Of a DNA stretch of 64,000 nucleotides, positions 49,701-53,017 are shown one piece after another. Both the position numbers and the translations under genes were made by a program. Source of the stretch: Mustelus asterias (Eukaryota); assembly GCF_964213995.1 (NCBI RefSeq), contig NC_135830.1:744001-808000 (forward strand), in the 5' to 3' direction. Position 1 is the stretch's first letter, and every line of letters begins with the position of its first letter. Below the pieces are notes generated by a model. The model saw only the letters and a list, made by a program, of their open reading frames with translations. It had not been told where the DNA came from and made no database searches.

Positions 49701-50708
49701 AGTCAGATTAGTTTGTGCTTTATAAGGACCGTTGTAAAAGTTGGGCAATTAGTAAACAATTGCTGTTGTATCGAAGCAGGGTTCTGAGAAAACTATCGGC
49801 CAATGGTTGATATTTTCGGTTGACATAGGGCTGTGGAGAGACTTGGGCAGCAGGATCACTTCAGAATTATGATAAGAAAGTCGGGGAATGATTTAGCATT
49901 AGGTTTGGGTTGGTGTAGGATTATGCAGAGACGGAAAGTGGATCTACTTTCTGATTATTCTGAACTTCGGAGTGAACCGCGCAACAGGATCCCTGAAGAA
50001 TTTAAGACAATGTTGTAAAGAGGTGGGAAACAGTCGGAAGAGATTTTGCTTTTCAGTCGGTCATGGCGAATGGAAGTATTGTTGATCTTGTTATGGGACT
50101 GAGATCAAGCCAGTGAAATGCTTTCAGGTTCGCCTGTTAAGAGGGTGACTGCGATGCTGTGTGCCTCTTTGTTTATTCAGGTTGGTGGATCGGTCTTGGC
50201 AGTGGAATTATCTGTGATTTCATCGAGGTCAAGAAGAGAAGAAAAATCTCTGGGATTTGTGTCGGATTGACTCTGGACAATGAGGGAAAATGTGAATTGT
50301 AACGCATGCTTGATTGACACGGAATGGGGGAATTTGTAATGTACAAATAGCTTTTCGATCCGAATGATCTATGTAGAGACAGCCCAGTTGTGGGATTGCC
50401 TGTTGCCAGGTACAAGGCTATCAAAAGCCAAAGTTTGCAGGACTGAACTTGACACGCAACTGTTTGGAAAGTGAGCAGGAACATTGTGAATTGTCTGTGA
50501 TAGCTATCAGACTATGAAGAGAGAGTAAATCGTGTGTTAATTTTATTGTTCTTCCCAAATTAGCAAAAGAGAGCTATTGGGCCTGATTTTACCATTTTGA
50601 GTCAAAGTGCCGATTCCGGGCGTCAAATAGATCCGCGCCTGGAATCCTCTTTCCAGCGCGCACATACGCGTTTTGCCGGCTCCGGTCCGATTCCCGGCTC
50701 GGGTCACT

Positions 50709-51064
50709 GGGGCGGCACGGTAGCACAGTGGTTAGCACTGCTGCTTCACAGCTCCAGGATCCCGGGTTCGATTCCCGGCTCGGGTCACTGTCTGTGTGGA
50801 GTTTGCACATTCTCCTCGTGTCTGCGTGGGTTTCCTCCGGGTGCTCCGGTTTCCTCCCACAGTCCAAAGATGTGCGGGTTAGGTTGATTGGCCAGGTTAA
50901 AAATTGCCCCTTAGAGTCCTGGGATGCGTAGGTTAGAGGGATTAGCGGGTAAATTAGCGGGTAAAAAAAAAGGGGATTAGCGGGTAGGGCCTGGGTGGGA
51001 TTGTGTTCGGTGCAGACTCGATGGGCCGAATGGCCTCCTTCTGCACTGTAGGGTTTCTATGATT
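50709..51064 (+). mobile_element. young HE1-type SINE inserted within the DNA transposon
   Basis: Near-identical to the 21266 copy. ATTAGCGGGTA is triplicated internally. Confidence 0.92.
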
Positions 51065-51412
51065 CGCGCTGTGGGCGGGGCTTAGCCCTGGCGGACCGAT
51101 CGGAGCTCTGAACTGCGCATGCGCAGTTCGAAAACAATCTGACCGGGCGCACCCGGGCGCAAAAGAAAAAAAAACAGAAAGCGGAGAGAGCGGCTCTCTG
51201 AAGATTATCCTCTGGTGGGGGGCGGTGGGGGCGGGTGGGAGGGTGGTAGGGACCCAGATCATCCAATGGTCGGTGGGGGGGGGGGGTTCGGCTGCCGGTC
51301 TGCGGCCGATCGGTGGGGAGGGAGGGGGCAGGGGGTTCCGCCTCCACTCTGCGTGCAATCCCTCCTCCCCACCGGAGGAACAAATACCTCCTGCCGGAGT
51401 GGACGTGCAGCA

Positions 51413-51567
51413 ATGCCATCCCACAAAATCTTCAGGATGAAGCGATTCCTCGCTAAGAAGATGAAGTAGAACCGGCCGATTCCATAGTGGATCCACGTGA
51501 AAAACGGCCACAAGACCAATACAACTCCAAGAGGAGATGCTGGAGAAGGACCAAGCTGGGCCTGTAA
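51413..51567 (+). pseudogene. RPL39: processed ribosomal protein L39 pseudogene (left arm)
   Basis: [33 protein letters not shown](1-nt deletion)[15 protein letters not shown]. Intronless, two stops. Confidence 0.93.
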
Positions 51568-51679
51568 AGGGATACACCGTCACTGGTACACTACCAGCCA
51601 CAGATTACTCTTCCCTGCAGGGGCAAGAGAGCGAGAGAGATGGCTGTGGCTGGTAGTGTACCAGTGACGGTGTATCCCT

Positions 51680-51834
51680 TTACAGGCCCAGCTTGGTCCT
51701 TCTCCAGTGTCTCCTCTTGGAGTTGTACTGATCTTGTAGCCGGTTTTCATGCGGATCCACTGTGGAATCGGCCGGTTCTGCTTCATCTCCTTGGCGAGGA
51801 ATCGCTTCATCCTGAAGGTTTTGTGGGATGGCAT
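51680..51834 (-). pseudogene. RPL39: processed ribosomal protein L39 pseudogene (right arm)
   Basis: [35 protein letters not shown](1-nt deletion)[15 protein letters not shown]. Intronless, same frameshift as the left copy. Confidence 0.95.
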
Positions 51835-53017
51835 TGCCGCACATCCACTCCGGCAGGAGGGATTCATTCCTCCGGTGGGGAGGAGGGATCGCCCGCAGAG
51901 TGGTGGCGGAACCCCCTGCCCCCTCCCTCCCCACCGATCGGCTGCAGACTGGGGGCAGAACCCCCCCTGGCCAGAGGATGATCTGGGTCCCCCCCCCCCC
52001 CCCCCCGCAACCAGAGGATGACCTGGGTCAGAGAGCCGTTGGAAAGCTCTGACCCCGCTCTTCGGATGCTGCAGTGAGCAGTGACGACTTCAGACTTTTA
52101 TTTTGCAGATCGCTTTCAACGCAGATGCAGAATGGGCCAGAAGACGGTAACGTGGGATTTGGCAATAGGGTTGGGCACGCAGTTCATTAAGTCGATTTAA
52201 ATGCATGCAAATGCATTAACTCATTAGGCCGCCCGATTCGGGCGCGGGCCGGACCCGCGCCGAATCGGGTGTCGGTAAAACCGCGATCTGCTCGGAATCG
52301 GGTGCAGATCACGGTATAGGCCCGACGCCCACCTTTACCGCGATTTCGCGCCCGTTTGGTAAAAATCGGGCCCATTGTGTTGAATTATTTTGTGGAATGA
52401 GACAAATCAATAGGGAAGGAATGGGACTGCTGGATAATAACATCACAAGAGGAATGTGGCTGCAATTGCTGGAAACCGTTGCAAAACAATGGGTGGAGAG
52501 TGGAACTGCCTCAGAATATTACAGGGACTGTAAGAGGGAAATAAAGAATATAGTTTATTGCAGCATGTTCGTGCAGACCTGCGAGGGGATAGCGCCAATA
52601 GCGAATATGGTTTATGAAGGGATCTTTCTAATAGGTTAAATGGCTCGTCAAAGGCGGCCGAGGAATCTATGTAAAATTCTTAGAAGGTTGATGTACAATT
52701 GCACATTCAGGGGAAAAGAACATGTTGATGTCAACAAAGACTGTTTACACAGTTAGGCCGACAGCTAAAATGCCGAGTGAGTTCGGCACTTTCTCAAAGC
52801 ACGTAGTGCAAGGCCAAGCCTGGTGGCAACAACAGATTCGGAAGTGGCCCGAAAAAATAGGGGAAACAGATGATTCTTGAAATAACGACACCCTGCCTCA
52901 TACTGTCTGTAAATTTTTGAGCGTGAAACAAAAATAGGCAATGTTGGAATTTAAACAATATGCTGCCCACGTGATTTTGAGCTGCTTATTTATCCCATTA
53001 ATCATCTCATTAATTAT

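What the first reader, a model, noticed from the sequence alone, without database searches (positions are those of the whole stretch)
50579..52373. DNA transposon that has captured a host ribosomal-protein cDNA (Pack-type Harbinger-like element)
Seen: TIRs starting GGGCC, an ATT 3-bp TSD, no transposase, and an interior holding intronless RPL39 coding sequence plus 36 nt of downstream sequence with no poly(A) tail. Established: 3-bp TSDs and GGG-start TIRs typify PIF/Harbinger, and gene capture is well known for plant Pack-MULEs but seldom reported in vertebrates. Inference: if the RPL39 cargo is part of the family consensus, this is a gene-carrying DNA transposon family amplifying RPL39 fragments in sharks. 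The MPSHK and KKMKQ residues differ from mammalian MSSHK and KKQKQ, so the donor (host or foreign) should be checked.
Basis: partly seen in the sequence, partly recalled or inferred. Interest (0 to 1): 0.78.

Follow-up and report, generated by a model that had tools for sequence, protein, structure and literature searches.

The report
Transposon spreads a ribosomal-gene hairpin
A cut-and-paste DNA transposon in this (likely shark) genome carries a spliced copy of the host's own ribosomal-protein gene RPL39, doubled back on itself as a long inverted repeat and spread to well over a thousand places; it is likely selfish cargo, but it would make double-stranded RNA against a ribosomal-protein gene if transcribed (untested).

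Summary
Window 50579-52373 is a non-autonomous Harbinger-type element (16-bp TIRs, ATT duplication, SINE insert). It holds not one but two RPL39 copies, tail to tail, forming a roughly 400-bp-armed palindrome. The cargo is the host's own spliced mRNA: the three-exon gene lies on C14, encodes MPSHK/KKMKQ, and is 92-96% identical with both introns precisely gone. The fold-back junction occurs exactly 1,489 times and the family's frameshift 871 times; estimates are about 1,200-1,350 loci with RPL39 coding sequence and about 500 with both arms. A sister family (45-67 copies) keeps one in-frame RPL39. Duplications are 3 bp (79 of 99 two-ended elements) in an ASAC|WNW|GTST target, confirmed by paralogous empty sites. 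Relatives with the same TIR encode a DDE_Tnp_4 transposase and a Myb/SANT protein. The cargo evolves neutrally, arms have been copied onto each other repeatedly, and other cargos sit at the same palindrome tip. Expression is untested. Closest known: Pack-TIRs and retrogene-carrying bat Helitrons, both reported at far lower copy numbers.

The parts
50576..50578 (+). left target-site duplication ATT
50579..50594 (+). left TIR GGGCCTGATTTTACCA; same sharp boundary in other copies
50579..50693 (+). left terminal region of the transposon, 5' of the SINE (continues at 51066)
50694..51065 (+). later SINE insertion with a 16-nt 5' duplication, bounded by GATTC repeats; absent at this site in other copies (V-SINE/HE1-like label is recalled, not tested)
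   Evidence: L005 shows the empty site
51191..51395 (+). left G-rich subterminal arm of the internal palindrome (transposon-derived; also present in copies without RPL39)
51396..51603 (+). RPL39 cDNA copy 1: 17 nt 5' UTR, CDS 51413-51567 (1-nt deletion, two premature stops), 36 nt 3' UTR; 192 of 209 nt identical to host
51604..51643 (-). 40-nt loop = host 3' UTR +37 to +76; its left edge is the family-wide fold-back junction
51644..51851 (-).
51852..52038 (-). right G-rich subterminal arm of the internal palindrome
52357..52373 (-). right TIR GGGCCCGATTTTTACCA
52374..52376 (+). right target-site duplication ATT

Best explanation
This is a non-autonomous Harbinger-type DNA transposon that carries a spliced copy of the host rpl39 mRNA duplicated into an inverted repeat and has spread to over a thousand loci, likely moved in trans by related transposase-encoding elements and likely as neutral cargo. 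Steps: (1) SHOWN: a family of short elements with an internal G-rich palindrome exists with several different sequences at the palindrome tip, at least four of them joined right after GGAGTG. (2) SHOWN: one such cargo is rpl39 exon 1 tail + exon 2 + exon 3 without introns, so it passed through RNA; INFERRED: it entered as LINE-made cDNA, either by retroposition into the element or by microhomology-primed template switching at GGAGTGG, which also occurs in the host 5' UTR. (3) INFERRED: fold-back template switching at UTR +76 copied the cargo back into the other arm. (4) SHOWN by nested changes: in-frame single copy (family A) and in-frame fold-back (L046), then a 1-nt deletion in both arms (family B, the window), then a symmetric loss of the CDS from both arms (family C); INFERRED: arm-to-arm copying during gap repair or replication homogenises the arms. 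(5) SHOWN: dispersal with individual 3-bp TSDs; INFERRED: cut-and-paste by a Harbinger transposase plus Myb/SANT partner.
For: Host gene with three exons and 92-96% identity to the window arms. 1,489 exact fold-back junctions, 871 exact frameshift junctions, 1,331 first-look candidates; cross-list estimate about 1,240-1,350 CDS-bearing loci. TSD 79 of 99; 13 of 79 reconstructed sites have an ungapped paralogous empty site. L094: 5,468-bp element with the same TIR, TAC duplication, DDE_Tnp_4 E=2e-30 and Myb_DNA-bind_5 E=1.4e-4, just over the cut-off; L184-L187 are further transposase-bearing relatives. Neutral cargo: N/S 80/30 in family A and 113/25 in family B against about 75% N expected. Arms of one copy share 9 non-majority variants against 2.3 in permutations, p=0.0014. 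Symmetric CDS deletion in most of the 21 CDS-less copies. Other cargos at the same tip in 5 of 20 sampled sister elements.
Against: No transposase element with exactly the window family's ends was found: L094/L131 ends are 83-88% like family A (one stretch 73%) but only 71-77% like family B, and L184-L187 are 67-76% like B. All transposase copies seen are broken. No poly(A), cargo TSD or close retrocopy donor remains (one search finds only the gene and one 79% retrocopy), so the entry route cannot be shown. GGAGTG(G) could be a remnant of the rpl39 5' UTR rather than pre-existing transposon sequence. End-region divergences of A, B and C are alike (medians 3.1, 3.6, 3.3%), so the order rests on nested changes only. 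Five of the 17 two-arm copies supply all 9 shared variants, and two of these are the host (ancestral) state. 20 of 99 two-ended elements lack a perfect 3-bp duplication (16 differ by one base).
Confidence: 0.8

Rival explanations
1. The hairpin copies are transcribed and feed Dicer, ADAR or piRNA pathways, giving small RNAs that target rpl39 mRNA or the element family; this host effect shaped the family (for instance the rise of CDS-less copies).
For: The window arms fold into one long duplex, -677.6 kcal/mol, z=-61. About 500 two-arm copies are estimated (7 of 40), with family majority differing from host at only 5 of 209 columns. One run guessed to be RNA holds a frameshifted contig that reads through the fold-back (X7). 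CDS-less copies are 21 of 40. Pseudogene-derived endo-siRNAs are described (abstract starts of PMC3616710, PMC3567485).
Against: Folding follows trivially from the inverted repeat. X7 is only guessed to be RNA, is a single contig, and two runs of the same study hold none of the words. No selection on the cargo. Shorter elements may simply transpose better. No promoter was tested.
Confidence: 0.12
2. The element captured RPL39 from a pre-existing genomic retrocopy by ordinary DNA gap-filling (the Pack-TIR route); reverse transcription had nothing to do with the element itself.
For: Gap-filling with microhomology is the main route reported for animal Pack-TIRs (PMC8277862, passages). Two free retrocopies exist (L053, L133). 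Other cargos at the same tip show no sign of being mRNA.
Against: Both free retrocopies are only 81-83% identical to the host cDNA and lack the 5' UTR piece, while the cargo is about 97% identical; the distal 3' UTR search found no closer copy. A young donor would have to be lost or unassembled.
Confidence: 0.25
3. The palindrome is a sequencing or assembly fold-back artefact.
For: Fold-back chimeras are a known artefact class (recalled).
Against: The two window arms differ by 7%; the same junction stands at 1,489 dispersed sites with distinct TSDs; contigs of other public runs show the same fold-back (X5, X7, X11; loose end in X9).
Confidence: 0.01
4. The RPL39 came from another organism (horizontal capture).
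Against: The genome's own intron-containing gene encodes exactly [19 protein letters not shown] and shares UTR sequence with the cargo.
Confidence: 0.01

Closest known systems
Animal Pack-TIRs (Tan et al. 2021, PMC8277862; passages and section 7 read)
   Same: Host sequence between the ends of a TIR transposon, a traceable parent, multicopy spread with distinct TSDs, microhomology at a breakpoint.
   Different: Their 370 cases were nearly all single-copy (four multicopy; examples of three and five copies), 87% hAT or Tc/mariner, with no occurrence of 'Harbinger' or 'shark' in the main text; intronless copies of multi-exon genes were filtered out. Here the cargo is spliced, doubled into an inverted repeat and present at over a thousand loci.
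Bat Helitrons carrying nested retrogenes, e.g. RPLP0 in HelibatN424 (Thomas et al. 2014, PMC4224331; passages read)
   Same: A DNA transposon amplifies a 5'-truncated cDNA of a ribosomal-protein mRNA.
   Different: Rolling-circle rather than cut-and-paste; poly(A) and TSD retained around the retrogene; 6 copies for RPLP0 and 118 for four retrogenes; no inverted duplication in the passages read.
Harbinger3_DR / NuwaI-NuwaII-type vertebrate Harbingers (PMC4482050 parts 1-2 of 4 read; target site quoted in PMC3016246, passage)
   Same: GGG-starting short TIRs, 3-bp TSD, DDE transposase plus Myb/SANT ORF, palindromic target: ASAC|WNW|GTST resembles AAACAC|CWG|GTCTTT in its flanks and the C|...|G of NuwaII.
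   Different: The duplicated triplet is WNW (62 of 79), not CWG (0), TNA (12), TWA (9) or ANT (19); clade not placed by a tree.
Plant Pack-MULEs and inverted-duplication hairpin genes (recalled; not read here)
   Same: Transposon-borne gene fragments; inverted duplication of a gene as a potential source of small RNA against its parent.
   Different: Different superfamily and kingdom; cargo here is cDNA; no small RNA shown.

Membership tests
Harbinger (PHIS) superfamily, non-autonomous element | 3-bp target-site duplication | tested here: met
   79 of 99 two-ended elements; 13 of 79 with ungapped paralogous empty sites; window family alone 24 of 31
Harbinger (PHIS) superfamily, non-autonomous element | Short TIRs (<60 bp) beginning with a purine, usually GG | tested here: met
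   16-bp GGGCCYGATTTTACCA
Harbinger (PHIS) superfamily, non-autonomous element | Relatives with the same TIR encode a DDE_Tnp_4 transposase and a Myb/SANT protein | tested here: met
   L094 (both domains); L131, L184, L187 (DDE)
Harbinger (PHIS) superfamily, non-autonomous element | An autonomous master with the window family's own ends | tested here: inconclusive
   Best end identities 67-77% among 6 transposase elements compared; only 31 of 10,689 DDE candidates were looked at
PIF/Harbinger group in the narrow sense (PMC4482050) | TWA duplication | tested here: not met
   9 of 79
Pangu group (PMC4482050) | ANT duplication and second ORF without a known motif | tested here: not met
   ANT 19 of 79; second ORF hits Myb_DNA-bind_5
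NuwaI group (PMC4482050) | CWG duplication | tested here: not met
   0 of 79
NuwaII group (PMC4482050) | C|TNA|G target | tested here: not met
   C at -1 in 71% and G at +1 in 70%, but TNA only 12 of 79
Any PHIS group | Placement of the DDE domain in the group's clade | not tested
   No reference transposases were fetched; a PDB sequence search gave 0 hits
Pack-TIR (PMC8277862) | Non-TE host sequence flanked on both sides by one TIR element, with a parent elsewhere | tested here: met
Pack-TIR (PMC8277862) | Cargo is genomic DNA, not an intronless copy of a multi-exon gene (their filter) | tested here: not met
   Both introns (about 1.7 and 5.3 kb) are precisely absent
Nested retrogene amplified by a DNA transposon (PMC4224331) | Intronless, 5'-truncated mRNA copy | tested here: met
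   Starts 17 nt before ATG, lacks the upstream pyrimidine tract of exon 1
Nested retrogene amplified by a DNA transposon (PMC4224331) | Poly(A) tail and TSD around the cargo | tested here: not met
   Cargo ends at UTR +76 (B) or +17 (A); no element copy with the distal UTR found
Hairpin-RNA / pseudogene endo-siRNA locus | Transcription across both arms and small RNAs matching the parent mRNA | not testable with these tools
   Only assembled contigs were offered; one run guessed to be RNA

The most novel reading that the evidence does not exclude
A vertebrate DNA transposon has mass-produced (about 500 two-arm copies) ready-made hairpin genes against a ribosomal-protein mRNA; some are transcribed in the germline and yield siRNAs or piRNAs that hit rpl39, and the palindrome tip of this Harbinger family works as a repeated cargo-capture site that also takes up cDNA.
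Probability: 0.12. Interest if true: 0.85.

Novelty: new variant of a known kind. Interest (0 to 1): 0.6.

Why it matters
The two surveys read here describe transposon-borne host sequence in animals as mostly single-copy or a few copies, and one of them filtered out spliced cargo. This family shows a cut-and-paste element amplifying a spliced ribosomal-protein cDNA about a hundredfold beyond those cases, with intermediates of capture, fold-back, arm homogenisation and cargo loss still in one genome, so the capture mechanism can be studied directly. It also gives a natural test of whether a vertebrate tolerates hundreds of long inverted repeats that match a housekeeping mRNA. Practically, it will inflate RPL39 gene and pseudogene counts and confound read mapping in this genome.

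Tried and rejected
Foreign donor: rejected. One-off insertion: rejected. Pangu assignment from the ATT duplication: rejected. Self-priming of the fold-back by a stem in host UTR +37..+78: the stem spans the loop but is not better than shuffles (z=-1.17, 24 of 200), so it is not used as evidence. Purifying selection on the in-frame family A: none (80 N, 30 S); its 29 of 35 intact ORFs are inflated because the loci were picked with an in-frame 27-nt pattern. Donor of the 610-bp second piece of family A: of 45 exact hits, the five not already known were fetched and all were family members; donor not found. Donor of the second cargo family: all 27 exact hits lay within the 40 places scored; donor not found. 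Dating subfamilies by end divergence: no separation. The left-end tree has several long branches where the script picked a neighbouring element's end, has no support values, and is used only for coarse end types. Expression and species range: 20 of 24 listed runs hold part of the stretch; of 4 laid, X9 shows 737 contigs (high copy, may be the same species as the window) and X5, X7, X11 show 1-3 low-depth contigs over the RPL39 part only, which may be contaminating DNA; no claim on expression or cross-species spread is made. tRNA scan 0; PDB search 0. Literature searches with no description of this family: (0; 0), listings only; Repbase and Dfam could not be searched, so a prior consensus entry is not excluded. 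Earlier scan notes: nothing. No supplements were opened; the Pack-TIR and PHIS supplementary tables may bear on copy-number and clade comparisons.

Full report
1. Observation. The element spans 50579-52373 with ATT on both sides and termini GGGCCTGATTTTACCA / GGGCCCGATTTTTACCA. A SINE with about 15 other copies in the window interrupts it at 50694-51065; copy L005 shows the empty site. No ORF in the element resembles a transposase. Each arm holds a whole RPL39 coding sequence, both with the same 1-nt deletion.

2. Donor. An in-frame junction pattern gave 35 hits, all of which were read: one is exon 3 of the host gene on C14 (L054), one an old free retrocopy (L053), and 33 are transposon copies. 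The host gene has exon 1 ending ATG|gt, exon 2 of 104 nt and exon 3, and encodes [19 protein letters not shown]...KLGL. The window arms match its spliced sequence at 192 of 209 and 238 of 249 nt. The cargo is 17 nt of 5' UTR, the CDS, and 3' UTR to +76; the 40-nt loop is UTR +37 to +76. Intron 1 has no useful microhomology at its ends, so its exact loss means an RNA intermediate. The deleted base is one G of the GG at the exon 2/3 junction.

3. Family size. A 261-nt cargo query raised 1,331 candidates, 40 scored; all 30 loci returned carry RPL39 and element ends (three are segmental duplicates and were dropped later). The fold-back junction 26-mer occurs 1,489 times and the frameshift 20-mer 871 times, controls 0. 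Forty of the first 100 listed junction hits, all on C1 and taken at even steps, were fetched: 7 have two CDS arms, 10 one, 2 part, 21 none. On C1, 21 of 41 frameshift loci also have the exact junction, giving rough estimates of 2,900 junction-bearing elements, 1,240 (or 1,350 by the 20-mer route) with a CDS and 500 with two arms; the intervals are wide.

4. Subfamilies and order. Family A (45 exact hits, 67 candidates) has related ends, one in-frame RPL39 cut at UTR +17 by a short fold-back, and a 610-bp piece of unknown origin. L046 has A-type ends, an in-frame CDS and already the fold-back junction. Family B (the window) differs from host at 5 of 209 columns, and none of 61 arms keeps the native junction (44 of 67 loci yielded arms). 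Family C has lost the CDS at the same breakpoints in both arms. The hairpin cassette also sits between other end types, including ends like those of transposase elements L184-L187. Arms of one copy share 9 non-majority variants against 2.3 expected (p=0.0014; 17 two-arm copies, 5 contributing). A deletion present in both arms, arising after the fold-back, needs arm-to-arm copying; that is inference from these nested states. Divergence from the column majority is about 2% for B arms and 3.5% for A; end regions do not separate the subfamilies.

5. Superfamily. Of 99 two-ended elements of all subfamilies, 79 have a perfect 3-bp duplication and 16 differ by one base; the target is ASAC|WNW|GTST; 14 of 79 rebuilt sites hit a paralogous repeat across the junction, 13 without a gap. 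In the window family sample 24 of 31 match (19 by script, five more read). Among 20 of 185 exact hits to the A-type right end, L094 is a 5,468-bp element with TAC duplication, a DDE_Tnp_4 transposase and a Myb/SANT ORF in convergent orientation, broken by stops. The genome has 10,689 DDE_Tnp_4 candidates. So it is Harbinger-type, but the triplet fits none of the groups of PMC4482050 (parts 1-2 of 4 read): TWA 9, ANT 19, CWG 0, TNA 12 of 79. Its flanks resemble the Harbinger3_DR target AAACACCWGGTCTTT (passage in PMC3016246). An autonomous element with the window family's own ends was not found.

6. A capture site. None of those 20 sister elements matched the RPL39 part. Eleven have a different short tip, three share a second cargo with its own 83-bp inverted ends (about 40 copies), and two have other cargos; these five, like RPL39, join at GGAGTG. 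The host 5' UTR has GGAGTGG at the junction. Either this is microhomology used in capture, or these families descend from the RPL39 element; my data do not decide.

7. Function. Substitutions in the cargo are neutral: 80 N / 30 S in A and 113 / 25 in B against about 75% N expected under a simple weighted model. The arms fold into a long duplex, which follows from the repeat. Only contigs were available for expression; one run guessed to be RNA has a frameshifted contig crossing the fold-back, two sibling runs hold none of the words, so expression is untested. The window's long ORFs are LINE-like; no host gene was evident.

8. Comparison and verdict. Pack-TIRs (PMC8277862; passages and section 7) are nearly all single-copy, and intronless cargo was filtered out. 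Bat Helitrons amplify retrogenes including RPLP0 at 6 to about 100 copies (PMC4224331; passages). Searches listed nothing on this family; Repbase and Dfam were not searchable. It is a new variant of a known kind: a Harbinger-type Pack element with spliced cargo, an inverted duplication and a very high copy number, most likely selfish and neutral. Interest 0.6; 0.85 if the hairpins prove to make small RNAs against rpl39 (probability about 0.12).

Noticed in passing
G000 whole genome: 10,689 first-look candidates for the Harbinger-type DDE_Tnp_4 domain, many with long open frames: a very large Harbinger load.
   Followed up: partly
L084, L086, L099, L175-L179: Second cargo family (about 40 copies) at the same GGAGTG tip, with an 83-bp inverted repeat at the cargo ends; donor not found.
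   Followed up: partly
L096 and L098 (C1): Two further, different sequences joined at the same tip.
   Followed up: no
L036:830-1440: 610-bp AT-rich piece with degenerate short repeats in family A; origin unknown.
   Followed up: partly
L013, L006, L188: Rearranged copies: L013 has two right ends with a matching 3-bp duplication; L188 has the RPL39 copies head to head.
   Followed up: no
L094:534-6001: The transposase-bearing element is itself inserted into the G-rich arm of another family member.
   Followed up: partly
L053 (C13) and L133 (C9): Two older free RPL39 retrocopies, 83% and 81% identical to the host cDNA.
   Followed up: yes
L011/L012 and L020/L021/L022 (C15:80.8-82.7 Mb): Copies with identical flanks, indicating segmental duplications on C15.
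   Followed up: no
L139, L145, L149, L143, L151: The RPL39 UTR hairpin between end types of other Harbinger subfamilies, suggesting cassette exchange between related families.
   Followed up: partly
window 28376-35620, 55230-63686: Dense, stacked LINE reverse-transcriptase fragments and about 15 SINE copies; no host gene evident among long ORFs.
   Followed up: no
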